Shown one piece after another: positions 2,640 through 56,685 of a stretch of 64,000 nucleotides of DNA. The first letter of the stretch is position 1; every line of letters starts with the position of its first letter. The stretch lies in NCBI GenBank assembly GCA_964589435.1, contig CAZPTT010000009.1, positions 2,457 through 66,456 on the forward strand, in the 5' to 3' direction. The translations under genes and the position numbers were made by a program. Below the pieces are notes generated by a model, which saw nothing but the letters and a program-made list of their open reading frames with translations, ran no database searches and was not told where the DNA came from. This DNA comes from an uncultured Pirellulaceae bacterium (GTDB lineage: Bacteria; Planctomycetota; Planctomycetia; Pirellulales; Pirellulaceae).

Positions 2640-4184
2640 TTACTCGGTCAGAATTGTCGGTAGATTGTTAGCGATTTCTTCGAAAATCGCGACCAAGCCG
2701 TCTCCTTCATCAGCATGGTAGTGCCGGCCATATCCGGTCGCGGCGACATCTTCCATGGCATCTTGATCGGCTCCTGGAGTAAACGTCACGGTGTGAATCG
2801 TCACGTTGTTATCTTCAATGATGTCTTCCGCTGCGTCTTCGGGCTCTTCACCCGCGTTGTTCTCACCATCGGTCAAAACAACAATTGTCTTAGCCGCGAA
2901 CAATCGGGCATCATCGCCACTAATAATTGGGTCAACGCCTTCCAGCATCCCATCACCAATCGCCGTTCCGTCATACGGCTTGATACCGGCAACTTTGTTT
3001 CGAATTAAGTCATAGTCTGACTGGAGCTCGTATTCGAGATAAGTACTGGTGTTAAACGTTACCAAAGATACCAATTCCTCTTGGTCCGTGTTTTCCAGAA
3101 TATCGAGGAACGCATCAACTCCATCCTCAAGTAGATCCCAACGGCTGTGCCGAGCTGCTTGGGAAGTGTTGTATTCCCAGTCATAAGCAAATTCTGCCAT
3201 ATCTTGGGTGAGTTTGTTTGATTCACTAGAGCTAAACGAAGTGCCGAGCGTGTGATCATCGTTGGTCCATTTTTCCAATTGATAAATTACGTTATTGGAA
3301 TACTCTCGGCTGTAAAGGGACTTGGTCGCATCTTGATATTCATCCCAACTGATGAGGCGATCGCTTGACGAACTGCCATCAACATAATATTTGTCCCACC
3401 AATCGAGAAACTCCCAATCTGATTCGGCATCTTCTTCCTTGTGGTATCCACGCCAGTAATACCACCACCCAGATCGTTCCCAGTAGGCATACATCCAGTA
3501 GCCTTCTTCTCCGGATGTCTCATAGGTCGAGTACAAGTCGTAAAGCGTGTCCGTTAGCGCCTCGTCGTCTTCGTAATACAGCATGGATCCTGAGCGATCG
3601 AGAACCAGAGCGATATCACGATCAACTTGAGTCGCAATCGAGCGGCGATTGACCGCGAACTCACCGAAGTTGCCGTAGTTCATTACGTTGAAAACGACTG
3701 GCAACTCGATACGAGTATTGATAGCAATACTTGTCGCACGCTGAACACCGGTATCGACATCGTCTTTGTCGACTCCGGTAAACTCATACATTCCGTAACC
3801 GCCATCGCCGCGTGTTGACAGTCCAAATTGGGCATCGAAATGGTCTTCGTCGTTTTCAGAGGCCGAAATCGAAATCACCTGCCCACCAACAAGATTGGCT
3901 TGAGCGGTTAGTTCGGCCTGTGCGATAGCGGCATCGGTTGTTTGATGGACGCTCATGGCGCGACCACCCGCGTGGGCAGAAGCGTCAGTAGCGACTTTCA
4001 ATTCCGTCGAAACCTTTTGCATGTAAGCCAAGTTAATTGCGAAGCCACAAAAGATCAGCAAAACCGGCAGCATGAAAGCGAACAACGGAGCGACAGCACC
4101 TTTTCGATTCAGCTTGGTCGTCTTCGCACATTTAAGTTTCATCATCATTTCGGATCGTCTTTCATTCAATGTTGGGTCGAACAT
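2640..4184 (-). CDS. TadG-like pilus-associated protein with vWA domain
   Basis: N-terminal RKGAVAPLFAFMLPVLLIFCGFAINLAY (Tad/pseudopilin-like TM), MIDAS DRSGS, GTAIGDG and VVLTDGENN. Confidence 0.85.
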   Translation of the reverse strand: MFDPTLNERRSEMMMKLKCAKTTKLNRKGAVAPLFAFMLPVLLIFCGFAINLAYMQKVSTELKVATDASAHAGGRAMSVHQTTDAAIAQAELTAQANLVGGQVISISASENDEDHFDAQFGLSTRGDGGYGMYEFTGVDKDDVDTGVQRATSIAINTRIELPVVFNVMNYGNFGEFAVNRRSIATQVDRDIALVLDRSGSMLYYEDDEALTDTLYDLYSTYETSGEEGYWMYAYWERSGWWYYWRGYHKEEDAESDWEFLDWWDKYYVDGSSSSDRLISWDEYQDATKSLYSREYSNNVIYQLEKWTNDDHTLGTSFSSSESNKLTQDMAEFAYDWEYNTSQAARHSRWDLLEDGVDAFLDILENTDQEELVSLVTFNTSTYLEYELQSDYDLIRNKVAGIKPYDGTAIGDGMLEGVDPIISGDDARLFAAKTIVVLTDGENNAGEEPEDAAEDIIEDNNVTIHTVTFTPGADQDAMEDVAATGYGRHYHADEGDGLVAIFEEIANNLPTILTE

Positions 4185-4284
4185 TCAATGCCTCCAGTAC
4201 ATGGAAATTTAATTGCTTCGTAGTTGGCCCGTTTCCAGGCCGAAGATCGCTTACGCTATTCATTCGCGTTTTTCAGCTCGTCAC

Positions 4285-4782
4285 CTAATCAATATCGTCC
4301 GCGTCAAAGTACCCGCGGTATCGCTCGGTACGAATGGTCATACTGGCATTGATTTGTGTATCACCAAGCACGCTGGCTGGTATGATGACTGAGTTTTCAT
4401 TCAAGTTGATTGTGATCGCACACCGAATTTGCTCGGTATCAAATGCGATCTCGCCTTCGACTTCGCCTGAGTCGTTGAGTGACCCGTCGAAACCGTTGAT
4501 CGTGATTTCTGCGCCTTGCGTCCCCAATCGTGAAAGAATGGTATTCGCTCGCTCGATGCCATCAGCGATCGTGCCGCCCTCGGTCATGACGAAGCGTGCT
4601 CCCTCGTACGCGGCGTTCTGAGCAAGGTTTCGCATCATGCTCAAGCGAGCAAATTCGGCGCAAACTACAATCACCAACACGAACGCGGGTGCGACCATCG
4701 CAAACTCCAACGCGACCGCACCACGGCGTCGATTTCGCCGAGAACGGGCCTTGTTAGTTGTTTTCTTCGCGAATGGATTCAT
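4285..4782 (-). CDS. tadE: TadE/TadG family pseudopilin
   Basis: RRGAVALEFAMVAP...AAYEGAR signature. Confidence 0.88.
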   Translation of the reverse strand: MNPFAKKTTNKARSRRNRRRGAVALEFAMVAPAFVLVIVVCAEFARLSMMRNLAQNAAYEGARFVMTEGGTIADGIERANTILSRLGTQGAEITINGFDGSLNDSGEVEGEIAFDTEQIRCAITINLNENSVIIPASVLGDTQINASMTIRTERYRGYFDADDID

Positions 4783-4825
4783 CGTTTCTAACTCAAAAAT
4801 CTAAAGGTAATTTTTTTACGGCCTG

Positions 4826-4885
4826 GTTTTCTTCTTCTCACCTGTCTTCTTCCTACCTGTCTTCTTCCTAACTGCCTTCTACTTA
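4826..4885. repeat. Four degenerate 15-bp tandem units starting at the tadE stop codon
   Basis: CCTGTCTTCTTCCTA exact twice (4841-4870), with variants at 4826-4840 and 4871-4885. Confidence 0.8.
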
Positions 4886-5341
4886 GTCGTCGAATTCACG
4901 AACCATTGTCACAGAAGATGTAACATTGCGATTAACCAGGGTGTCGAAAATGTAAAGTGAGTTTCCAGCAGTTGGCGCGGTGATCGTGACAGTAATTGGG
5001 TCGAGTTCGCTTAGCGTGCTGAAGTCCGTAGGGTTAATCACAATTCCCGTTACCGTTCCAGCACTATCGGTTGGTAGTGTCACCAGACGATCAGCCAGCG
5101 CTTCAACCGCTCGGTCGTAAACATCGTCGTAGTCCGCCCGACGACGGACGCCCGCTCTTGCTGCTTCATATGCACAAACCGTCAAAGACTCCGACAAGTA
5201 AATTCCTGCGCAAACTTCGAGCGTTCCCATCATTAAAACAATGACGATTGGGATGCAAAGAGCCGCCTCCACAACTGCCGCACCTTTACGATCGCTTTTT
5301 CGGCGACGGGAGAGGCGTGATTTTGAAACGATTTGATTCAT
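4883..5341 (-). CDS. tadE: TadE family pseudopilin
   Basis: RKGAAVVEAALCIP...AYEAARAG signature. Confidence 0.88.
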   Translation of the reverse strand: MNQIVSKSRLSRRRKSDRKGAAVVEAALCIPIVIVLMMGTLEVCAGIYLSESLTVCAYEAARAGVRRRADYDDVYDRAVEALADRLVTLPTDSAGTVTGIVINPTDFSTLSELDPITVTITAPTAGNSLYIFDTLVNRNVTSSVTMVREFDD

Positions 5342-5653
5342 GGTTGATTACTTGTTAAGAGTCGGTCGAGGCAAAATGCTCACTGGTTGTTATGGAGACT
5401 CAGTTGTTATTGGAAACGTATGTCAACAATCACGAGGCGGCGTGATTTCAATCAAACTTCCCACGTGAATTCTTCCGAGCCTGCTACCCAATTAGTACAT
5501 CCGCGCCAACCGTTATTCGTTTCTCGATACCGTTCAAGCAACCGTAAATTTTGCGGCATTGGACTCACCGTTGCATAACCGGCAAAACAAAGACATTCGG
5601 AATAATCATTTCGCCTTTACTTCCGTTGGAAGGCAAATAGAATTGTGGCTTCG

Positions 5654-5833
5654 TTGGAACGGTGATCGCGTTTGGCACATCTGCTCGTGATTAAAGGGAA
5701 CCCGGTGAAATTCCGAGACGGCCCCGCCGCTGTAACCGGCTGAAAAACGACCACTTTCTTACACCATTGTCGCTCTCGAGCGATGAGAAGGTTGGGGTCG
5801 TTTAGCTGGAAGTCAGAATACCTGCCGATCCAA
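5654..5833 (+). promoter_or_regulatory. Cobalamin (B12) riboswitch
   Basis: Conserved elements in order: AAAGGGAA, CCGGTGAAATTCCG, GGCCCCGCCGCTGTAA, CCATTG...GAGAAGG and the B12 box AAGTCAGAATACCTGCC. P1 closes as TTGGAACGGT/GCCGATCCAA. Confidence 0.92.
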
Positions 5834-5888
5834 TTAACCGAAGTCGTTTTTGCGAGGGACAAAACGGTTTCAGAATCGATCTGTATTT

Positions 5889-6737
5889 ATGTTCACAACA
5901 TACGCGGGTGAGCTGCGCGCTACGCGATGCCATCACCAATGGCCTTCCAGGCAAGCGGCCCCACTGACGCGAGGGTTCACACTGGTTGAATTGCTTGTCG
6001 TTATCGCAATCATCGGAATTCTAATCGGCATGTTATTGCCAGCCGTGCAAATGGTACGAGAGTCCGCACGCCGCACAAGCTGCTTAAACAACCTTCGCCA
6101 AACAAGCATCGGCTTGCAGGCGTATCACGCGGCACTGGAAGAATTCCCAGTTGGCGCGATCGAGTGGCGAAGCGGCGGAGACAAAACGAAGCGTCAGTTG
6201 GCTTGGAGTATCCATTTGCTTCCATTCCTTGAACAGGACAATGTTCATCGACAACTTGATCTCAACACTCCGTTTGACAGTCCAGAGAATGCGCACGGTG
6301 CGGCTCAGATTTTGAGCGTCTTCATTTGCCCAAGTGGAGTACGCGGAGCAACGTTGGTGGACGGTCGTGGGCCATGTGACTATGGCGGAATTTACGGAGA
6401 GCGCATCAACAGTCCCAACAATCCTCCCAAAGGGATCATGATCCATGACATCGCCATTCGCTTGGCCGATGTGACCGACGGAAGCTCCAACACACTGATC
6501 GTCGCCGAGGACTCTGGCTGGGGCGATGGACAGTGGATCAATGGTCGTAATATTTTTGATCAAGCATTTAAAATCAATCAAGCGCCGTCATTTGAAAACG
6601 ACATTCGCAGTGAACACCCCAGCGGTGCCAATGCGACTCGCGCCGACGGCAGCGTGATGTTCATCTCGGAAAACACAGACCTGCAAACACTCGGCGCGAT
6701 CTGCTCCCGTGCCGGCGGAGAAACCGTCAGCTTTTGA
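5889..6737 (+). CDS. DUF1559 family prepilin-type (PulG-like) protein
   Basis: GFTLVELLVVIAIIGILIGMLLPAVQMVRESARR...C.NNLRQ, DGSSNT and the C-terminal H-X9-DG motif (HPSGANATRADG). ATG at 5889 preferred over TTG at 5850. Confidence 0.93.
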   Translation: MFTTYAGELRATRCHHQWPSRQAAPLTRGFTLVELLVVIAIIGILIGMLLPAVQMVRESARRTSCLNNLRQTSIGLQAYHAALEEFPVGAIEWRSGGDKTKRQLAWSIHLLPFLEQDNVHRQLDLNTPFDSPENAHGAAQILSVFICPSGVRGATLVDGRGPCDYGGIYGERINSPNNPPKGIMIHDIAIRLADVTDGSSNTLIVAEDSGWGDGQWINGRNIFDQAFKINQAPSFENDIRSEHPSGANATRADGSVMFISENTDLQTLGAICSRAGGETVSF

Positions 6738-6842
6738 ATGAGCCAACACTTACATCACTCTTGAATATGCCGACGGTTTTCCCTCGGCGCTTCTTACTTT
6801 TTAAGCACCTGCTTTTTGCTTTTTCACCTTGCGGCTAACAAC

Positions 6843-7721
6843 ATGAAACACTCACTAACTTTAAGTTCCCTATTCTTAGCTTCCATTTTCTTGGCGGCCA
6901 CGTCGACAACAGCTCAAACGCTTACCTTCGAAGAACTGCCTGTTCCGGCGACTGGTTTTTTTAACGGAGACGTTAATGGGGCGGCAAACTTGCGACAGAA
7001 CTTTCGCACGATTGGAACCCGAGACAACTTCGGTTCGGAAGAGACTCTTCAACTCTGGGGGCTCGGCGGCGGCGAGTTTTTTAATGGCTACACGGAAGCC
7101 TTCGGGTCTTGGAATGGCTGGAGTTGGTCGAACGTCGAAGATTCGGCGACTGCCGGATTCTTGAATCAGTACGCCTCGTTTCCAGGCGGGGGAAGTGATG
7201 GAGTTGGTGGAACTGACTCCGGTGGTAACTATGCGATTGGGTTTAGCGGCGAAGCGTACTTCAATTTACCTTCACTGACGGAACTAGTCTCGGTTGATCT
7301 CGCGAATTCGACCTACGCCGCACTATCAATGCGCGATGGAGATCAGTTTGCTCGCAAATTCGGTGGAGACAGCGGCGATGAAGAGGACTTTTTCAAGATC
7401 GACATCATTGGCTACAACCAGTTGTTCACCGGATCCGATTTAGCAGGATCCGAAGTAGGCTCGGTCGAGCTATTTCTGGCCGACTATCGTTTCGCGGACA
7501 ACAGCCTTGATTTCATCTCTGATCGCTGGAACAACGTTGATCTTTCTTCGCTGACCGGAGCCCAGTCGATCCGTTTCGCGATCGAGTCATCGGTAGGAGG
7601 GACACCATCCTATGTGGCCATCGACAATCTCAGCCTGACGACCTCGGTTCCAGAACCAGCAAGCGGAGCGTTTTTACTGGGCACGAGCTTGCTGCTGCTT
7701 ACGCAACGTCGTCGCCGCTGA
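6843..7721 (+). CDS. DUF4465 domain protein with signal peptide and PEP-CTERM sorting signal
   Basis: Signal peptide; DUF4465-like motifs WSWSN, NQYAS, NSTYAALSM.DGD.FARKFGG, FLADYR, W..VDLSSL and PSYVAIDNL; C-terminal VPEP + hydrophobic stretch + RRRR. Confidence 0.85.
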   Translation: MKHSLTLSSLFLASIFLAATSTTAQTLTFEELPVPATGFFNGDVNGAANLRQNFRTIGTRDNFGSEETLQLWGLGGGEFFNGYTEAFGSWNGWSWSNVEDSATAGFLNQYASFPGGGSDGVGGTDSGGNYAIGFSGEAYFNLPSLTELVSVDLANSTYAALSMRDGDQFARKFGGDSGDEEDFFKIDIIGYNQLFTGSDLAGSEVGSVELFLADYRFADNSLDFISDRWNNVDLSSLTGAQSIRFAIESSVGGTPSYVAIDNLSLTTSVPEPASGAFLLGTSLLLLTQRRRR

Positions 7722-7767
7722 ATAAGCTTGACAGCTTGCTGGCGGATCTGAAAAACCGTCTTTTCAC

Positions 7768-7800
7768 GGGCACTCAAACTCGATTTGAGTGCCCACTTTT
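7768..7800 (+). terminator. Intrinsic terminator candidate closing the B12 operon
   Basis: Perfect 11-bp inverted repeat GGGCACTCAAA-ctcga-TTTGAGTGCCC followed by ACTTTT. Confidence 0.65.
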
Positions 7801-7941
7801 CACGCTTCTTTCCTCTCATAGCAAGGAAACTGAAAAGTCTGCTTCTGTCGTAGCAGGACGGCACGACCCGCGCATAGCGCGTAGCAAGAAAATTGACCAG
7901 CGGTTTACGAAGGGTTAGGATCGTTCACGAAGTAGTGAAAT

Positions 7942-10476
7942 TTGAATTCTCATCTGAACACCCAAGACCTTGGCGAGGTAGCGATGCTGAATCTTAGACT
8001 CTCAATCCCAATTCCGTCGCAGCAAAACTCTGCCAAACTTTGGCTGAAACTTGCGATTACTATCGGCTTGACATTTTCACTCAGCGGCATCTCGTTGAGC
8101 CAAGAAACATCAAGCAAGGAAGGCGCGGCTGCCGCAGGAGAAGTTGACGAAGAGTTTCCGGACGCACCATCGGTTCAACTGACCGTCCTGGAATCCAACG
8201 GCAAACCGATCCCGCACGCTGACGTTTCTGTCAGTTGCTGGTTCCAAGATCAACAATACCGGTCAAAGTATCCCCGCGATCAGAAAGCAGACGAAAATGG
8301 CATCGTCACGATAAAGCTTCTTCCAACATTGGAACGAATACGATTTTGGGTTTCTGCTGAGGATCATGTGACTCTATTCTCTGGCTTCGAACCAGGAATG
8401 CTTGCCAATCTCCCGAGTGAAATTACGTTTCGCTTGCAGCGATCTGAATCGATCGGTGGAAAAGTCCTCGACTCCGACGGTAAACCGGTCGCCGGAGCCG
8501 CCATTGAGATCATGAGAAATGGCGGGGGGAGTAAACTCGACACCAATGACTTCTCACAATTGAATACATGGATTGCATTAGATGACGATCCGATACGAAC
8601 CGACGAAGATGGTGAGTGGATGATCGATCAGCGGATTCCAACTGGTGACGATCTTGATCTGAGCTTCATTGTCAAACATCCGGATTTGCTTGGTGATTCA
8701 CGCTGGACATCGATGAGCAAGAAACGGGTCACGCTGAAGCAATTAAAGGAGCGATCGGCGACCTTCACAATGACAAAAGGAGCCAGGCTGAAAGGGACTG
8801 TGGTCGATGATGCTGGTAAACCCATTGAGAATGCGTTGGTCATTTGGGGGGATCGACCGTACTGGGAAAAAGGAAGCCAAGAGATAAAAACAAACTCGGA
8901 CGGTGAATTTCATATCCCAGCGCAGAGCAAATCGAAACCGCTGAACGTGACCGTCGTCGCTCAAGGCTGGATGCCTCAATTGAGAAAGTTCAACCTTGCC
9001 AAGGAAGGGCTCGAGGCGAATTTTTCGATGGCCAAGGGTAAGAAGTTACATTTGAAGTTCGTCGACGCCAACGGAGATCCGGTACCCAAGGTTCGCGTTG
9101 GACTCAAAAAATGGCGGGGCATCGAATCACTCTACAACATCCAGCATCCCAATGTTGTCGATTCCAAAATCCCCACCGTCTCAGACGAAAATGGTGAGTA
9201 CATCTGGGACTGGGCGCCCGATGACGAGGTCACTTATCAAACCGGCAACCGTGAATTTGCTCGGTTCACGGAACGCAAGTTGATCGCCGACGGGACGATC
9301 CAAACGATCGAACTAAAACAAAAATTCTCCCTCGCCGGAACCGTTGTCAATGCAGTGACCAATGAGCCAGTCGACCAGTTTACGATTACGCCGGTAACTT
9401 GTTATCCCGGCGGGCGGGGGATTGCTCAGTCCAACAGCAGCCAGCAGTTTGCGTCCTCCAATTTCACAATGAACGTTGATTCGTTTGGCCATCACGATGG
9501 TAACATCAAGTTCGAAATCGAGTCGCTTGGATTTCGCGTCAAAGTAACCGAAGAGTTTACGAAAGAGGCTAAACCATTTGAGGGCGTGATTGCGATGGAA
9601 CCTGTTCCGTCTCCGACTGGACGAGCCGTCGATACAGCTGGAAACCCTGTCTCGGGCGCTTCAATTTTTGTCTGCACCAAAGACAACGGCGCAATGATCA
9701 ACGGTATCGATGAGTATTTCCAATCGAGCGAGCGAATGTATAAAGCGGGCGAAGATGGAAAATTCCAGTATGCCGCCCAGAATTCGCGAGTTGCCATCAC
9801 CATCGCTTCGCCCGACGGCTATGCAGAGAAATATCTTGAAAGTGACGAGCATCCCGGCGACGTTGTTCTCAAACCCTGGGCGCGAATCGAAGGTCAGTTG
9901 GTTCAAGCCGGCAACCCGGTTCCTGGTGCAACAGTGATGGTCAATCCGATCCGAACATTGGGAAATGAAAACCCTCATGTTCAGGATATTTTTTATACTG
10001 AAACCGACAACGAAGGTCGGTTCGTTTTCGAAAGAGTTCCGCCCATTCCTTGTTCGATCCGTAGTCGACTTTCGCCATGGGAAGACGCTCCCATCACGTC
10101 CAACCGCTCAGTTGCAATCCGACTAGAACCCGGCAAGACTCACCAAATAAGCCTTGGCGGCGAAGGTTTACAAATCGTGGGCAACGTGAAACTCAATGGA
10201 GAATCTACTGATCACATCGAGTTCCGGTACGGTCTCAACACGCTACTCAAAGTCGGCAGCAAGATTGAACTGGAAAAGCACCTCGTCAATCCCGGCCAGT
10301 TTTCTGTTGGCCAGGAGAAAGACGAAATGATGCGGCTCACCGATGGCAGTGGCTCAACAGCCGGCTACGAAACTCACTTTGTCAAAATCAATCCTGACGG
10401 GTCTTTTCTGATCAATGGAGTTGCTCCAGGAGACTATCGTTTTTTACTTCGGGTGTACGAACCGCCCTCTGGCTGA
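7942..10476 (+). CDS. Large exported protein with carboxypeptidase-regulatory-like beta-sandwich repeats (5' part of an in-frame fusion with the TlpA domain)
   Basis: Signal/TM segment and repeated G.V.D..GKP..GA.V...TD.DG.F motifs. Start codon uncertain (7942-7984). Confidence 0.8.
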   Translation: MNSHLNTQDLGEVAMLNLRLSIPIPSQQNSAKLWLKLAITIGLTFSLSGISLSQETSSKEGAAAAGEVDEEFPDAPSVQLTVLESNGKPIPHADVSVSCWFQDQQYRSKYPRDQKADENGIVTIKLLPTLERIRFWVSAEDHVTLFSGFEPGMLANLPSEITFRLQRSESIGGKVLDSDGKPVAGAAIEIMRNGGGSKLDTNDFSQLNTWIALDDDPIRTDEDGEWMIDQRIPTGDDLDLSFIVKHPDLLGDSRWTSMSKKRVTLKQLKERSATFTMTKGARLKGTVVDDAGKPIENALVIWGDRPYWEKGSQEIKTNSDGEFHIPAQSKSKPLNVTVVAQGWMPQLRKFNLAKEGLEANFSMAKGKKLHLKFVDANGDPVPKVRVGLKKWRGIESLYNIQHPNVVDSKIPTVSDENGEYIWDWAPDDEVTYQTGNREFARFTERKLIADGTIQTIELKQKFSLAGTVVNAVTNEPVDQFTITPVTCYPGGRGIAQSNSSQQFASSNFTMNVDSFGHHDGNIKFEIESLGFRVKVTEEFTKEAKPFEGVIAMEPVPSPTGRAVDTAGNPVSGASIFVCTKDNGAMINGIDEYFQSSERMYKAGEDGKFQYAAQNSRVAITIASPDGYAEKYLESDEHPGDVVLKPWARIEGQLVQAGNPVPGATVMVNPIRTLGNENPHVQDIFYTETDNEGRFVFERVPPIPCSIRSRLSPWEDAPITSNRSVAIRLEPGKTHQISLGGEGLQIVGNVKLNGESTDHIEFRYGLNTLLKVGSKIELEKHLVNPGQFSVGQEKDEMMRLTDGSGSTAGYETHFVKINPDGSFLINGVAPGDYRFLLRVYEPPSG

Positions 10477-53506: not shown

Positions 53507-55210
53507 TTACTTACCCCGCTTGTCTTCGACAGACGCTTCTCGTTTAGAAGGTGCCTTTTTGACTTCGACCAATGAAGACCCCAATCCATAGGTTGCTTCG
53601 GAATCAAGCATACAACGAACCGCACATCGGCCACCGACGTCTCTCGGCACATCAAGCTGAATTTCAAATGGGCCTTGTGCAACGAAGATCTTTTTCGTCG
53701 AACAAGTCAATTGCTGGGACTGCTCGTAAATTTCTTGATAGTCACGAAAGGCTTGATCGGAAGACTCGTAGCGTCTTCGATGCGGCGGCCTGGTTTTGAA
53801 TCGATCGCGGCGGTAAACAAGCTCAACCGTCATTTCGCCGGATTCCGGTGCGACTCCCGTCACATTCATCGGCCGCCCCGCCTCCACGATCTGCTCGGCT
53901 TTAACTTTAATTTTCTGCGGTCGGCTCAGCCGCAACAGTGGATCGCCCAACAGGTGAATTAACTGAACATGCTCGAGACATTCTTCTTTCAAGAGTTTTG
54001 GACGAGGACTAAACATTTTTCCCATCACGTCAATCATTTGTCGATACTGGCTGGCATTGCTTGTTTGCTCAGCCACCATGCGTTGCTTGGCAATCATCGT
54101 TAACTCACCAAGCGTGCCGCAATCGCCATCGAAAAACTCGTTGACCATTTCAAGCGACAACAAACTCATCGCATAAGGCATGGTCACACGGGTTCCGCAA
54201 ATGGTTGCAATCGGACCACGAGGCTGCTTCAACATCGCCTCTGCGAGACAATCTGTTTCGTGGTCAACCGCGCCCGTATAACAAGACAGGAAAAGGGCAA
54301 TTGGACTGCCATTTTCACAGTGCAATTGTTCAGCCGTTTGCTTGTCTAGAATTGGGTGGCTTTGGTCGGGCAAGACAACTCGATCGAGTTGTTGGGGGCT
54401 GCCGTGGCCAATGTAAACCCAAAACATGCAGCCTTCATTGAACTTGCCAATGGCAGTTTCGGAAAACCGACGAGGGTCGGGACAATAGGGGCTTCGCCAG
54501 CTACCGAAAGTCATCGAGGTTCGGTAGCGTTCTGGAACCAGGTCTGTGATGATCTGTTTGGTCGTATTCTCAATCACGCTATCGACCGTGCTACCGAATC
54601 CACCCACTCCAGCGACGATATTTATGTTGCGACGCCACTGCTGATTGGAGTTTGCGGCGAAGGCCTGGGAGCGACCCGATTCTTCATACTCGATTACTCG
54701 ATCTGTAAAATCTCGTAGCTCCTGAGCTGAATCGATAGGAAGTCGTCCGATCGCCAAATCTGGCACACCGTCCTCATCGATATCAGCAAATGTACTATCG
54801 GTCGCGATTTCTGGTTCCGAACCGAACAGGACGGTAACTTTGGAATCGACATAGTCCATTGGCACCAGCAATGGTTTGACGGGCAACTTCTCTCCAGGAT
54901 CACCAATCAAGAAGACGAACTTTAGTTGCCCGGAAGCCGCTTCCTTCCGAATCTCCTTTTTGATTTGGTCAGTCGAAACGCGCGGTGCGACAACCCGGAC
55001 AACATGCCCTTGCTTACTTCGGTAATCAACCCAGGGCTGTAAAGCATCTTGAAATTTGGCCGGACAGACAACGAGAGTGTCACACTTATCCTGGGCCTGA
55101 GCTTGCTGCGGCTTTGCGGTAGCGACAAATACCAGTGTCGCCACAACGACGATTCGAAGGCAAGCGTGCGCGAAGGCACGATTTAAAATTTCTGCTCGCG
55201 ATTTCGACAT
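53507..55210 (-). CDS. C25 (gingipain-like) cysteine peptidase, exported
   Basis: FVFLIGD, ATDSTFAD.D.DG.PDLAIGRLP, YIGHG (His) and LSCYTG (Cys). Start uncertain (55210 or upstream). Confidence 0.85.
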   Translation of the reverse strand: MSKSRAEILNRAFAHACLRIVVVATLVFVATAKPQQAQAQDKCDTLVVCPAKFQDALQPWVDYRSKQGHVVRVVAPRVSTDQIKKEIRKEAASGQLKFVFLIGDPGEKLPVKPLLVPMDYVDSKVTVLFGSEPEIATDSTFADIDEDGVPDLAIGRLPIDSAQELRDFTDRVIEYEESGRSQAFAANSNQQWRRNINIVAGVGGFGSTVDSVIENTTKQIITDLVPERYRTSMTFGSWRSPYCPDPRRFSETAIGKFNEGCMFWVYIGHGSPQQLDRVVLPDQSHPILDKQTAEQLHCENGSPIALFLSCYTGAVDHETDCLAEAMLKQPRGPIATICGTRVTMPYAMSLLSLEMVNEFFDGDCGTLGELTMIAKQRMVAEQTSNASQYRQMIDVMGKMFSPRPKLLKEECLEHVQLIHLLGDPLLRLSRPQKIKVKAEQIVEAGRPMNVTGVAPESGEMTVELVYRRDRFKTRPPHRRRYESSDQAFRDYQEIYEQSQQLTCSTKKIFVAQGPFEIQLDVPRDVGGRCAVRCMLDSEATYGLGSSLVEVKKAPSKREASVEDKRGK

Positions 55211-55524
55211 GGTCTTCCTTGGTGAAGGCACAAAATGAGCGTCAGTACCGCTTTCGTGATCCGACTCCAGTAGTTTGGAAGAATCATCGCAGAGTAGCAA
55301 GAGAAATAAGGCGTAAGAACATGAAGAAAACCCGGCAAACCGAGCAAATCGAATTTCCCTCAACCAACACGACCTTGATTTCCCAATTCTTATCTCACTT
55401 TACCCATCATGATGGCCACGTCTTAGGTGTCTCGCAAATTGACTTAAAAAACACCGGTAGCACAAACCAAAGTTGGAAATCGTTTCCGTCCAGAATAATT
55501 CAATAGCCGGATAAACGAAGTGAC

Positions 55525-56631
55525 CTACCAATCATAAACACTGAGAGCACTATGCACCTCACCGCCGTTGATTGAGCCGAGAGCTCCCCAAACACCGTAG
55601 GGGCTGGCGACTGATCCGGCGGACATCTGCTGATCATTAAGAACTGACTGGGTTGGATCACCAGCGTCAATTTTGTCGTCGATCGTATGAGTCGAACCGT
55701 CCATCAATGCAACATGAATGACTCCCGCATGATTACTACCGGCTGAGTAGATCCCATCGCCTGATTGCTGCTCACCCACCGAACAACTTGGACTGTTGGG
55801 TGGCAACACAGTGTTCACGATTCCACTTCCTGCGGCACCATCAGCCCAACTACCGCCTCGACCAGGCGTTCCGAGGGCTAAATCAGAGCGAAGCTTCCTC
55901 TGAATGCCTTGAGAATTCTCGACGAGCTTGAAGCACTCACTTGGGTCATCTAGAACGCTCGACGATTGGTTGATTGCATACTGGGCGATTACAGCCCGAT
56001 CAGAAGACGTGCCGATCTCAGCAATCCCAATCGAATTGCTCGTACCATCTGAAAAGTCAGTAATCCGAGTCTTCGTTCGACAACTAAACGCACCTCGCAC
56101 TTGTGAGGAACCATGAATATTTCTGGCCATGTCACCGACGCAGAACGCATAGTTCGTCCGCCCAAATGGCCCCGGCGTTTCATTGGCTGAAGGGCACTGA
56201 AACATTTCAATATTGGTTTGCCAAGGAAGATAGGTATCGTCCAATGGCGACGGCCCGGCCAGAAAGTCAACGCCCTCGAATGTTGACGGATTCGAAACGG
56301 TCTCCCACAGCTCGCCTTGCTCCATCAGTGGGAGCAAAGTCACCCAGCCACTCAACCGCTGGGAACTGTTTTCAAGGCCTTCCATTGACCCCATGGCCGT
56401 CGGGAAACTCATGTGGCTCGATTCATGATTGAGTGACGCGAGCGCAAGCTGTCGCATATTGTAATGACACATGCTGCGGCGCGACCCTTCTCTGGAAACT
56501 CGCTGCGCCGGCATCAACATTCCGAGCAAAATCCCAATGATCACAATCACTATGAATAGCTCGAGTAGCGTGAAACCACCTCGTTGACTTTTTCGTAAGC
56601 GTTGCGTCCGGCGGTTCAATTCTTGCAACAT
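55525..56631 (-). CDS. DUF1559 family prepilin-type protein
   Basis: GFTLLELFIVIVIIGILLGML.P, DGTSN and H-X9-DG (HAGVIHVALMDG). Confidence 0.9.
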   Translation of the reverse strand: MLQELNRRTQRLRKSQRGGFTLLELFIVIVIIGILLGMLMPAQRVSREGSRRSMCHYNMRQLALASLNHESSHMSFPTAMGSMEGLENSSQRLSGWVTLLPLMEQGELWETVSNPSTFEGVDFLAGPSPLDDTYLPWQTNIEMFQCPSANETPGPFGRTNYAFCVGDMARNIHGSSQVRGAFSCRTKTRITDFSDGTSNSIGIAEIGTSSDRAVIAQYAINQSSSVLDDPSECFKLVENSQGIQRKLRSDLALGTPGRGGSWADGAAGSGIVNTVLPPNSPSCSVGEQQSGDGIYSAGSNHAGVIHVALMDGSTHTIDDKIDAGDPTQSVLNDQQMSAGSVASPYGVWGALGSINGGEVHSALSVYDW

Positions 56632-56649
56632 TGCAACTCCTTGGTTAAT

Positions 56650-56685
56650 CAATTTGAAACCATCGACCAATTTGAAACCATCGAC
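56650..56685. repeat. Perfect 18-bp tandem duplication
   Basis: CAATTTGAAACCATCGAC twice, abutting the stop codon of the DUF2306 gene. Confidence 0.9.

What the first reader, a model, noticed from the sequence alone, without database searches (positions are those of the whole stretch)
5654..7800. Self-contained cobalamin-riboswitch operon: DUF1559 pseudopilin + DUF4465 PEP-CTERM protein (candidate non-BtuB B12 capture system)
Seen: a full B12 riboswitch, then just two co-oriented genes, then a strong hairpin terminator. No TonB-dependent receptor or BtuCDF genes lie in the unit or the window. Established: cobalamin riboswitches control B12 synthesis or uptake genes, or B12-independent isozymes; DUF1559 proteins carry type IV prepilin cleavage motifs; PEP-CTERM marks exosortase-processed surface proteins. 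Inference: a surface-anchored binder plus a dedicated pseudopilin form a B12 scavenging module that may replace the BtuB route, which would give one DUF1559 paralogue a specific substrate.
Basis: partly seen in the sequence, partly recalled or inferred. Interest (0 to 1): 0.82.

Follow-up and report, generated by a model that had tools for sequence, protein, structure and literature searches.

The report
B12-riboswitch operon: pilin-like protein plus B12 binder
A vitamin-B12-sensing RNA switch controls two genes in a marine planctomycete, one a surface B12-binding protein of a recently characterised family and the other a pilin-like protein of unknown function; the pair is conserved across the phylum and sits where other bacteria keep their outer-membrane B12 transporter, which gives a first functional clue for a huge uncharacterised protein family.

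Summary
The window holds a full cobalamin riboswitch (RF00174, 92.8 bits, 5643-5843). It is followed by a DUF1559 prepilin-type gene (5889-6737), a DUF4465 gene with a PEP-CTERM-like tail (6843-7721), and a strong hairpin (7768-7794).

DUF4465 is the BtuJ family of high-affinity extracellular B12 binders, published 2025-2026, and one planctomycete member has been shown to bind B12.

I found no report of the DUF1559 link, and it is very robust:
- Starting from DUF4465, 42 of 52 planctomycete loci carry a prepilin-type partner and none has a TonB-dependent receptor nearby.
- In Betaproteobacteria and Bacteroidota, 11 of 12 loci carry a receptor and none has a prepilin partner.
- Starting from the DUF1559 clade in metagenomes, 70 of 75 loci have the riboswitch directly upstream and 63 of 66 have DUF4465 directly downstream.

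The DUF1559 partner forms a tight orthogroup (62% identity or more). It has a pilin-type N-terminal helix and a head domain with no relative in the PDB.

That it "replaces BtuB" remains an inference. It fits the published scarcity of TonB systems in Planctomycetes, but nothing here shows it. Verdict: a new variant of a known B12-scavenging system, testable in cultured strains.

The parts
5616..5643 (+). Sigma70-like promoter candidate (TTTACT-16 nt-TAGAAT), ending where the aptamer begins
   Evidence: Consensus scan, 9 of 12 matches. This is a pattern match only.
5643..5843 (+). Cobalamin riboswitch aptamer (RF00174)
   Evidence: Infernal 92.8 bits against a gathering score of 31.5, E 1e-21, full-length model match. 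Homologous aptamers lie upstream of the same gene pair in relatives.
5845..5866 (+). Expression-platform hairpin: stem CGUUUU/AAAACG, conserved loop UGCGAGGGAC. It may be the regulatory helix that docks on the aptamer when B12 is bound.
   Evidence: The loop is conserved and the stem shows compensatory changes in L001-L004. The hairpin is not energetically exceptional on its own. Its role is inferred.
5889..6737 (+). DUF1559 prepilin-type protein (282 aa) of the B12-linked clade. The mature protein starts after Gly at 5973-5975 with FTLVE (Glu5), and the H-X9-DG motif is at 6615-6650.
   Evidence: Pfam PF07596 at E 4e-45 plus PF07963 and TIGR02532. More than 120 clusters share 62% identity or more. 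AF2 model pLDDT 93.8: a 52-residue N-terminal helix plus an alpha/beta head.
6843..7721 (+). DUF4465 (BtuJ-family) B12-binding protein, 292 aa. Sec signal peptide about 6843-6914, DUF4465 domain 7098-7631, PEP-CTERM-like sorting signal 7647-7718.
   Evidence: PF14717 at E 1e-36. PDB 9HMU (B12-bound D5EK51) at E 1.7e-23, with the DE-helix Tyr and the HI-loop GTPSY retained. VPEP...RRRR is nearly invariant in homologues.
7768..7803 (+). Intrinsic-terminator-like hairpin (11 bp, loop CUCGA) followed by ACUUUUCAC
   Evidence: dG -18.6 kcal/mol, z -5.74, 0 of 200 shuffles as stable. The U-run is only 4 long, so termination efficiency is inferred.

Best explanation
This is a B12-repressed cobalamin-scavenging operon adapted to a planctomycete cell envelope.

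When intracellular B12 is low, the riboswitch lets both genes be expressed.

The DUF4465 protein is exported by Sec. It is held at or released from the cell surface through its PEP-CTERM signal, which here takes the place of the lipid anchor used by Bacteroides BtuJ. It captures cobalamin from seawater with high affinity.

The DUF1559 protein is processed like a type IV pilin. It works as the dedicated envelope partner and holds the genomic position that the TonB-dependent transporter BtuB holds in other phyla. Most likely it is a subunit or tip of a pilus or pseudopilus-type fibre that passes through an outer-membrane secretin. It would take B12, or the loaded binder, and bring it into the enlarged periplasm, where an inner-membrane transporter encoded elsewhere finishes import.

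Shown here: the riboswitch, both family assignments, the pilin architecture, and the near-obligate three-way linkage.

Shown by others: B12 binding by DUF4465 proteins.

Inferred: any B12 contact by DUF1559, its assembly into a fibre, the direction of transport, and independence from BtuB.
For: - Riboswitch.
- DUF4465 is a B12 binder: and (BtuJ1 hands B12 to other surface proteins).
- Forward synteny: about 35 of 80 DUF4465-seeded loci have a close DUF1559 orthologue immediately upstream on the same strand.
- Lineage tally: Planctomycetota, 42 of 52 with a prepilin partner and 0 with a TBDT. Betaproteobacteria and Bacteroidota, 11 of 12 with a TBDT and 0 with a prepilin partner.
- TBDT density: 0 hits in 1.38 Mb of planctomycete flanks against 19 hits in 0.44 Mb elsewhere.
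- Reverse synteny from the DUF1559 clade: riboswitch directly upstream in 70 of 75 loci, DUF4465 directly downstream in 63 of 66.
- The same trio occurs in cultured Symmachiella dynata, Roseiconus lacunae and Pirellula sp. SH-Sr6A.
- The partner is better conserved (62-76% identity) than the binder (40-57%).
- Eleven positions are invariant in linked clades and differ in unlinked paralogues.
- Pilin features: G|FTLVE with Glu5, and a long alpha-1 helix.
- TonB and TBDRs are absent from most Planctomycetes examined (PMC3422733).
- Some NCBI and UniRef records already name relatives 'DUF1559 family PulG-like putative transporter'.
Against: - There is no experimental datum on any DUF1559 protein.
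- There are no expression data for this locus. Only seawater metagenome DNA runs hold it.
- No pilus or secretion machinery, prepilin peptidase, exosortase or inner-membrane B12 transporter is in the window, so the rest of the route is unknown.
- The head domain shows no similarity to any known B12-binding fold, or to anything else in the PDB.
- About 10 planctomycete loci have riboswitch plus DUF4465 and no prepilin gene nearby, so the binder can exist without an adjacent partner.
- Some Pirellulales do possess one TonB-dependent receptor, which could be BtuB.
- In Bacteroides, BtuJ is an accessory reservoir and not the transporter.
Confidence: 0.45

Rival explanations
1. DUF1559 is not assembled into a fibre. 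It stays anchored in the inner membrane by its N-terminal helix and acts as a periplasmic B12 receptor, in a BtuF-like role. It would pass B12 to an inner-membrane transporter, while outer-membrane crossing uses something else: a lone TonB-dependent receptor, a porin, or crateriform-structure uptake.
For: Pfam's own name for PF07596 is SBP_bac_10. No pilus machinery is linked to the operon in any locus examined. Genomes carry dozens of DUF1559 paralogues (68 in P. limnophila), which is more typical of binding-protein families than of pilins. Some Pirellulales have one TBDR.
Against: The G|FTLVE motif with invariant Glu5 and a 52-residue alpha-1 helix is the signature of assembly-competent pilins. 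The gene is a positional alternative to the TBDT and not to BtuF. There is no structural similarity to periplasmic binding proteins.
Confidence: 0.25
2. DUF1559 works outward and not inward. It would be a dedicated pseudopilin or anchor that exports, displays or tethers the DUF4465 binder, or in other loci the giant multi-DUF4465 proteins, at the cell surface. B12 import would then proceed by an unrelated route.
For: Type II secretion pseudopilins push folded proteins through secretins, and the N-terminal region gives weak GspG/GspH matches. The same DUF1559 clade precedes binders of very different sizes (about 290 aa to about 2000 aa with dockerin), as if it serviced the cargo protein and not the vitamin.
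Against: The binder already carries its own Sec signal and PEP-CTERM sorting signal. In phyla that have TBDTs, the same binders need no such helper. T2SS systems do not normally encode one pseudopilin per cargo. The GspG equivalog cutoff is missed by a wide margin.
Confidence: 0.15
3. The pair is only an accessory reservoir or competition device. It would sequester B12 outside the cell, as proposed for BtuJ1, in a genome that otherwise imports B12 through a canonical BtuB-BtuCDF system encoded elsewhere. DUF1559 would add avidity or tethering but no transport step.
For: BtuJ1 in B. thetaiotaomicron is described as an extracellular reservoir that is not itself the transporter. The rest of the genome is unseen. 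Solo riboswitch-DUF4465 loci exist.
Against: TBDT and prepilin partners are almost mutually exclusive beside DUF4465 across 80 species-level genomes. TonB systems are missing from most Planctomycetes examined. This model does not explain the very tight conservation of the DUF1559 clade.
Confidence: 0.12

Closest known systems
Bacteroides thetaiotaomicron btu loci with BtuJ1/BtuJ2 (DUF4465), BtuG, BtuH and BtuB
   Same: Both are cobalamin-riboswitch-controlled loci. Both encode a secreted, surface-located DUF4465 beta-jellyroll B12 binder, with conserved Tyr residues in the DE helix and the HI loop.
   Different: The binder has no lipoprotein anchor; a PEP-CTERM signal is present in its place. 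The unit has no BtuB, BtuG, BtuH or BtuCDF. The only conserved partner is a prepilin-type DUF1559 protein, which none of the BtuJ papers mentions.
D5EK51 of Coraliomargarita akajimensis (PDB 9HMU) and 'Pan' of Mucisphaera calidilacus, the PVC-group DUF4465 proteins shown to bind B12
   Same: D5EK51 is the closest solved relative of the window's binder (E 1.7e-23). Both show that PVC-superphylum DUF4465 proteins bind cobalamin.
   Different: The published genome-context analysis reports ABC transporters, TonB barrels and plugs, and beta-propellers. It does not report pilin-like partners.
Type IV pilins and type II secretion pseudopilins (PilA, GspG, ComGC)
   Same: Shared features are the prepilin cleavage and methylation motif G|FTLVE with Glu5, a long hydrophobic N-terminal helix, and an alpha/beta head. 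DNA-uptake competence pili are a precedent for cargo import by retraction (own knowledge).
   Different: The head domain has no detectable PDB relative. The protein fails all pilin and pseudopilin equivalog cutoffs. It carries the DUF1559 body with an H-X9-DG motif. No assembly genes are linked to it.
Betaproteobacterial operon of riboswitch, 'family X' gene, DUF4465 and TonB-dependent receptor (e.g. Methylobacillus L053, Thiobacillus L063, Aquabacterium L065)
   Same: Same riboswitch family and the same PEP-CTERM-type DUF4465 subfamily.
   Different: The transporter gene is a classical Plug plus barrel receptor. In Planctomycetota that slot is empty and a DUF1559 gene is present.

Membership tests
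Cobalamin riboswitch (Rfam RF00174) | Covariance-model score above the curated gathering threshold over the full aptamer | tested here: met
   92.8 bits against 31.5, model positions 1-189 of 189.
Cobalamin riboswitch (Rfam RF00174) | Lies in the 5' leader of B12-related genes, same strand, and this placement is conserved in relatives | tested here: met
   46 nt upstream of ATG 5889. The same arrangement holds in 10 of 10 closest loci, 70 of 75 reverse-test loci and 3 of 3 cultured strains.
Cobalamin riboswitch (Rfam RF00174) | Ligand-dependent control of expression | not testable with these tools
   No RNA runs hold this sequence. A conserved hairpin with covarying stem follows the aptamer, but its role is inferred.
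DUF4465 / BtuJ B12-binding proteins (PF14717) | Pfam domain above the gathering score | tested here: met
   126.9 bits against 25, profile positions 2-176 of 176.
DUF4465 / BtuJ B12-binding proteins (PF14717) | Conserved B12-contacting Tyr in the HI loop (GTPAY-type motif) and Tyr in the DE-loop helix | tested here: met
   GGTPSYVAID aligns to SGVPSYLALD of 9HMU, and NSTYAALSM aligns to NTVYAYDSM. The motif is described in PMC13398666.
DUF4465 / BtuJ B12-binding proteins (PF14717) | Export signal and surface localisation | tested here: inconclusive
   A Sec-type N-terminal signal is visible in the sequence (MKHSLTLSSLFLASIFLAATSTTA). There is no lipobox Cys, unlike BtuJ1 and BtuJ2. A C-terminal PEP-CTERM-like signal is present. 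Localisation itself cannot be tested here.
DUF4465 / BtuJ B12-binding proteins (PF14717) | Binds cobalamin | not testable with these tools
   Eight diverse members bind B12, including a planctomycete one (PMC13398666). This protein has not been assayed.
Canonical Btu outer-membrane uptake locus (BtuB-centred) | TonB-dependent receptor (Plug plus beta-barrel) encoded in the riboswitch-controlled unit | tested here: not met
   No TBDT in the window or in 1.38 Mb of planctomycete flanks. TBDTs are present beside DUF4465 in Betaproteobacteria and Bacteroidota.
Type IV pilin-like proteins (prepilin-peptidase substrates) | N-terminal cleavage and methylation motif G|F(T/S)LxE with Glu5, followed by a hydrophobic helix | tested here: met
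   PF07963 at 29 bits against 21.2. TIGR02532 at 28.7 bits against 16.3. Glu5 is invariant in 106 sequences. The AF2 model has a helix over residues 7-58.
Type IV pilin-like proteins (prepilin-peptidase substrates) | Linked or co-occurring assembly machinery (prepilin peptidase, ATPase, platform, secretin) and assembly into a fibre | tested here: inconclusive
   None is found in the window or in related loci. Whole genomes could not be scanned. Only Tad minor-pilin genes lie next door, at 2640-5341.
Type II secretion major pseudopilin GspG (TIGR01710) | Score above the equivalog cutoff over the full length | tested here: not met
   34.1 bits against 88.85, and only residues 41-100 (the helix) match.
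DUF1559 (PF07596), prepilin-associated H-X9-DG proteins | Pfam domain above threshold and a C-terminal H-X9-DG motif | tested here: met
   155.3 bits against 23.3. HPSGANATRADG is at 6615-6650, and the His and Asp-Gly are conserved.
PEP-CTERM / exosortase substrates | C-terminal P-E-P motif, transmembrane helix and basic cluster recognised by the family HMM | tested here: inconclusive
   The motif VPEP, a hydrophobic stretch and RRRR are present and nearly invariant in homologues. For this copy the HMM is sub-threshold. Relatives reach PF07589.
PEP-CTERM / exosortase substrates | An exosortase gene in the genome | not testable with these tools
   None is in the 64-kb window. The rest of the genome is unavailable.

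The most novel reading that the evidence does not exclude
The B12-linked DUF1559 protein is the cargo-specific subunit of a retractile, pilus-like import device. That device would carry a vitamin across the outer membrane in bacteria that lack TonB-dependent transport. By extension, the dozens to hundreds of DUF1559 / H-X9-DG paralogues in Planctomycetota, Verrucomicrobiota and relatives would be a repertoire of substrate-specific import pilins, functionally analogous to the TonB-dependent receptor repertoire of other Gram-negative bacteria.
Probability: 0.3. Interest if true: 0.92.

Novelty: new variant of a known kind. Interest (0 to 1): 0.72.

Why it matters
**An open transport question.** Cobalamin (about 1.35 kDa) is too large for general porins. 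In every studied Gram-negative bacterium it crosses the outer membrane through the TonB-dependent transporter BtuB. Most Planctomycetes lack TonB and its receptors, so how they acquire B12 is unknown. These are abundant marine and freshwater bacteria, many of them associated with algae that also need B12.

**A first functional handle on DUF1559.** DUF1559 is the largest paralogous family in these genomes, with 68 copies in P. limnophila, two of them essential. No function has been assigned to any member.

**Why this locus helps.** A DUF1559 clade is locked to a B12 riboswitch and a proven B12 binder, in the genomic slot that BtuB occupies elsewhere. That gives a concrete ligand, a regulatory cue and cultured carrier strains with which to test what DUF1559 proteins do.

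**The floor if the import idea fails.** Even then, the result extends the BtuJ scavenging system to a new anchoring mode (PEP-CTERM) and a new obligatory partner.

Tried and rejected
- **Expression evidence.** Only four seawater-metagenome DNA runs contain the locus, so co-transcription and B12 response could not be checked.
- **First AF2 run.** A shallow alignment of 28 sequences gave pLDDT 58, and only the N-terminal helix was usable. It was superseded by a 106-sequence alignment spanning two linked clades (pLDDT 93.8).
- **Foldseek against the PDB.** Nothing scored at E<=0.001, so the head domain cannot be tied to a known ligand-binding fold.
- **Custom covariance model.** The MAFFT alignment of 11 aptamers was too ragged in the variable loops, so I dropped this. 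I used nhmmer on that alignment plus Rfam spot checks. nhmmer missed the betaproteobacterial aptamers, which Rfam then found.
- **The roughly 685-aa ORFs near planctomycete loci.** I considered them as possible BtuB genes. They are bicarbonate-transporter/EIIA proteins.
- **Ten apparent reverse-test exceptions.** Seven were an artefact of my coordinate filter and do encode DUF4465.
- **Literature.** Searches for DUF1559, H-X9-DG, 'PulG-like putative transporter', and Planctomycetota with BtuB found no functional study and no mention of the B12 link.
Full report
**1. What is in the window**

Infernal places a full-length cobalamin riboswitch aptamer (RF00174) at 5643-5843 on the + strand, at 92.8 bits against a gathering score of 31.5. 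It is the only Rfam hit in the 64 kb. A sigma70-like hexamer pair ends exactly at its 5' edge, at 5616-5643.

Two co-oriented genes follow.

The first gene is listed as ORF 5850-6737. Its most likely start is ATG 5889, because that position aligns with the start codons of the closest relatives. It encodes a DUF1559 protein: PF07596 at E 4e-45, with a prepilin N-terminal methylation motif (PF07963, TIGR02532). The mature N-terminus would be FTLVELLVVIAIIG, with the Glu5 typical of pilins. An H-X9-DG motif (HPSGANATRADG) lies near the C-terminus.

The second gene (ATG 6843 to stop 7721) encodes a 292-aa protein with three parts. It has a Sec-type signal peptide and a complete DUF4465 domain (PF14717, E 1e-36). 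Its C-terminus, VPEPASGAFLLGTSLLLLTQRRRR, has the PEP-CTERM layout. For this copy the PEP-CTERM HMMs are below threshold. Even so, VPEP...RRRR is nearly invariant across 31 homologues, and several relatives do reach PF07589.

An 11-bp perfect hairpin at 7768-7794 closes the unit (dG -18.6 kcal/mol, z -5.7). It is followed by a short U-run.

Between aptamer and start codon lies a small hairpin at 5845-5866. Its 10-nt loop (UGCGAGGGAC) is conserved, and its stem changes in a compensatory way among the window and L001-L004. It is a plausible regulatory helix, but that role is inferred.

The rest of the window carries housekeeping and envelope genes: DnaE, TIM, HisRS, a MoxR-DUF58-transglutaminase set, and Tad minor pilins. 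It has no TonB-dependent receptor, btuCDF, pilus machinery or exosortase.

**2. What is already known**

DUF4465 is no longer a domain of unknown function. BtuJ1 and BtuJ2 of Bacteroides thetaiotaomicron are surface lipoproteins encoded in riboswitch-controlled btu loci. They bind B12 at roughly 1e-10 M and pass it to other surface components.

Clarke et al. (FEBS Open Bio 2026, PMC13398666) showed B12 binding for further divergent members. These include one from the planctomycete Mucisphaera calidilacus. They also solved the B12 complex of D5EK51 from the verrucomicrobium Coraliomargarita (PDB 9HMU).

The window's protein hits 9HMU at E 1.7e-23. It keeps the two hallmark tyrosines, one in the DE helix and one in the GTPxY HI loop.

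Those papers describe the genomic partners as ABC transporters, TonB-dependent barrels and plugs, and beta-propellers. None mentions DUF1559, pilins, PEP-CTERM or Planctomycetota-specific context, and neither does a September 2026 review.

DUF1559 itself appears in only four papers in the library. It is described there as a large, planctomycete-restricted paralogous family of unknown function, with 68 copies in Planctopirus limnophila, two of them essential. Some NCBI and UniRef records call relatives 'DUF1559 family PulG-like putative transporter', but I found no publication behind that name.

**3. Is the gene pair conserved?**

*Forward test.* I fetched 80 loci around DUF4465 relatives, one genome per species. 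All 10 closest loci have RF00174 upstream on the same strand. An nhmmer screen found the aptamer in at least 58 of the 80, and Rfam recovered more in Betaproteobacteria.

A close orthologue of the window's DUF1559 protein (E 1e-38 to 1e-130) sits immediately upstream of DUF4465 on the same strand in about 35 loci. These span Pirellulales, Gemmatales, Isosphaerales and Planctomycetales.

Two designs recur:
- The window's design: riboswitch, DUF1559, and a DUF4465 protein of about 300 aa with PEP-CTERM.
- A second design in which DUF1559 precedes a giant protein of about 2000 aa, with three DUF4465 domains and a dockerin.

In Phycisphaerae, several Verrucomicrobiota and other Planctomycetota, a more distant prepilin-type protein lies downstream of DUF4465. 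Most of these carry H-X9-DG.

Genes beyond the pair differ from locus to locus, so the conserved unit is the pair plus the riboswitch.

*Reverse test.* Starting from the DUF1559 clade, I fetched 80 metagenome loci. The riboswitch lies directly upstream in 70 of the 75 with enough sequence, and in one more it is 2 kb upstream. DUF4465 lies directly downstream in 63 of 66.

Three cultured strains carry the same trio, confirmed with Rfam: Symmachiella dynata Pan258, Roseiconus lacunae and Pirellula sp. SH-Sr6A.

The DUF1559 partner is a tight orthogroup, with more than 120 clusters at 62-76% identity. That is clearly better conserved than the binder, at 40-57%. The window's other DUF1559 paralogue (55525-56670) scores only 90 bits against the clade profile, where linked copies score above 300.

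**4. The contrast with other phyla**

An HMM built from the TonB-dependent receptors found beside DUF4465 gave very different results in the two sets of loci:
- Burkholderiales and Bacteroidales flanks and the like: 19 hits in 0.44 Mb of non-planctomycete sequence.
- Planctomycete flanks: none in 1.38 Mb.

The tally by lineage is as follows.

| Lineage | Loci | Prepilin partner | TBDT |
|---|---|---|---|
| Planctomycetota | 52 | 42 | 0 |
| Verrucomicrobiota | 7 | 5 | 2 |
| Betaproteobacteria | 7 | 0 | 7 |
| Bacteroidota | 5 | 0 | 4 |

The betaproteobacterial operon reads riboswitch, an unannotated family, DUF4465, then TBDT. The planctomycete one reads riboswitch, DUF1559, DUF4465.

Speth et al. 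2012 (PMC3422733) found TonB and TonB-dependent receptors in only four of the planctomycete genomes they examined. Two of those were anammox bacteria, and Pirellula staleyi and Blastopirellula marina had one receptor each.

The pilin-like gene therefore occupies the genomic slot of the outer-membrane transporter in a phylum that mostly lacks that transporter class.

**5. Structure of the DUF1559 partner**

With a 106-sequence alignment spanning two B12-linked clades, AlphaFold2 gives a confident model (pLDDT 93.8, pTM 0.87). It has a 52-residue N-terminal helix followed by a compact alpha/beta head.

Foldseek finds nothing significant in the PDB. The top hits, at E 0.5-1.3, are type IV pilins matched through the helix. 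Sequence searches of the PDB also match only the pilin helix.

Eleven positions are invariant in the linked clades but differ in unlinked paralogues: N109, G134, D139, G142, E146, N152, W191, F198, D199, Q200 and R249 in mature numbering. They are candidate specificity determinants. They could not be mapped in 3D here.

**6. Mechanism**

*Shown here:* a B12 riboswitch in front of a two-gene unit, a BtuJ-family binder with intact binding signature, a pilin-architecture partner, and near-obligate linkage of the three.

*Established by others:* DUF4465 proteins bind B12 tightly, and in Bacteroides they hand it on.

*Inferred:* under B12 limitation the binder is exported and displayed through PEP-CTERM sorting and captures cobalamin. 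The DUF1559 protein, processed like a pilin, links capture to envelope crossing. My preferred reading (0.45) is that it acts as a subunit or tip of a fibre passing through a secretin and delivers B12 to the periplasm. This is analogous in logic to DNA uptake by competence pili (own knowledge).

*Rivals:*
- An inner-membrane-anchored periplasmic B12 receptor (0.25).
- An export or display helper for the binder (0.15).
- A pure reservoir or competition accessory to a canonical BtuB system encoded elsewhere (0.12).

Chance adjacency is excluded by the two-way synteny.

*Against the preferred model:*
- No DUF1559 protein has ever been assayed.
- No machinery genes are linked to the operon.
- About 10 planctomycete loci have the binder without an adjacent partner.
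- The remainder of this genome is unseen.

**7. Verdict**

The finding is real and not a chance arrangement. Its B12-capture reading is correct, but for the DUF4465 half it is already published.

The new element is the conserved, riboswitch-controlled coupling of one DUF1559 clade to the binder, in place of BtuB. Within the searchable literature this is unreported. It is best filed as a new variant of a known B12-scavenging system.

There is a substantial chance (about 0.3) that it marks a TonB-independent, pilus-type import route. It also offers the first ligand assignment for the DUF1559 / H-X9-DG superfamily. Cultured carriers make it directly testable.

Noticed in passing
L030:8899-9750, L014:10971-12266, L067:11002-11925, L054:9065-9931, L053:8932-9864 (not present in the window): An unannotated protein family or domain of about 280-460 aa is co-operonic with DUF4465 in 56 ORFs. 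It has no Pfam hit and no PDB hit by sequence. It occurs in Betaproteobacteria, Bacteroidota, Myxococcota, Verrucomicrobiota and Planctomycetota, and it is fused inside the giant multi-DUF4465 proteins. It may be a further B12-handling accessory domain.
   Followed up: partly
L078:7844-13885; also L022, L024, L056, L068, L076, L035: In Rubripirellula, Novipirellula, Zavarzinella and related Pirellulaceae, the small binder is replaced by a protein of about 2000 aa with three DUF4465 domains plus a dockerin. It is still preceded by the riboswitch and the same DUF1559 clade.
   Followed up: partly
L009, L019, L026, L027, L038, L046, L070, L074: Some Planctomycetota, notably Pirellula spp. and one Mariniblastus, have a riboswitch directly in front of a solo DUF4465 gene with no prepilin gene nearby. 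These may be second copies in genomes that also hold the paired module, or a partner-independent variant.
   Followed up: no
window 2640-5341 (- strand): Three Tad-pilus minor-pilin-type genes (TadE, TadE, and TadG-like with a VWA domain) lie divergently, immediately upstream of the riboswitch promoter. The adjacency is shared only with the closest relative, so it is probably coincidental. They are the only pilus-related genes in the window.
   Followed up: partly
window 7942-10476 (+ strand): This 844-aa secreted protein is made of CarboxypepD_reg / Ig-like repeats. It gives weak hits to DUF4198 and to a NikL-type nickel/cobalt ECF subunit. It starts 150 nt after the operon's terminator hairpin and has its own promoter-like site at 7893-7921. 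A metal (cobalt) connection is speculative.
   Followed up: no
window 55525-56670 (- strand), next to 53507-55363: A second DUF1559 paralogue (381 aa) is not linked to any riboswitch. It scores far lower against the B12-linked clade profile and lies directly upstream of a Peptidase_C25 (gingipain-like) gene. This is another possible pilin-plus-secreted-protein pair.
   Followed up: no
window 5850-5975; protein cluster P0121: Public gene calls for this exact DUF1559 protein are 248 aa and start inside the pilin helix, so the prepilin motif is lost. Automated annotation would therefore miss that it is a prepilin-type protein. The leader implied by ATG 5889 is long, at 29 aa.
   Followed up: partly
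L010:8635-9855, L163:7001-8245 (P0241-P0255): A second B12-linked DUF1559 clade, in Pirellula sp. SH-Sr6A, Stieleria, Rhodopirellula and others, carries an extra N-terminal DUF1289 (PF06945) region in the precomputed Pfam annotation.
   Followed up: no
L006:3992-5395: In one planctomycete locus the module is followed on the same strand by a ribonucleotide-reductase large subunit with an ATP cone. It may be a B12-related enzyme placed next to the uptake genes.
   Followed up: no
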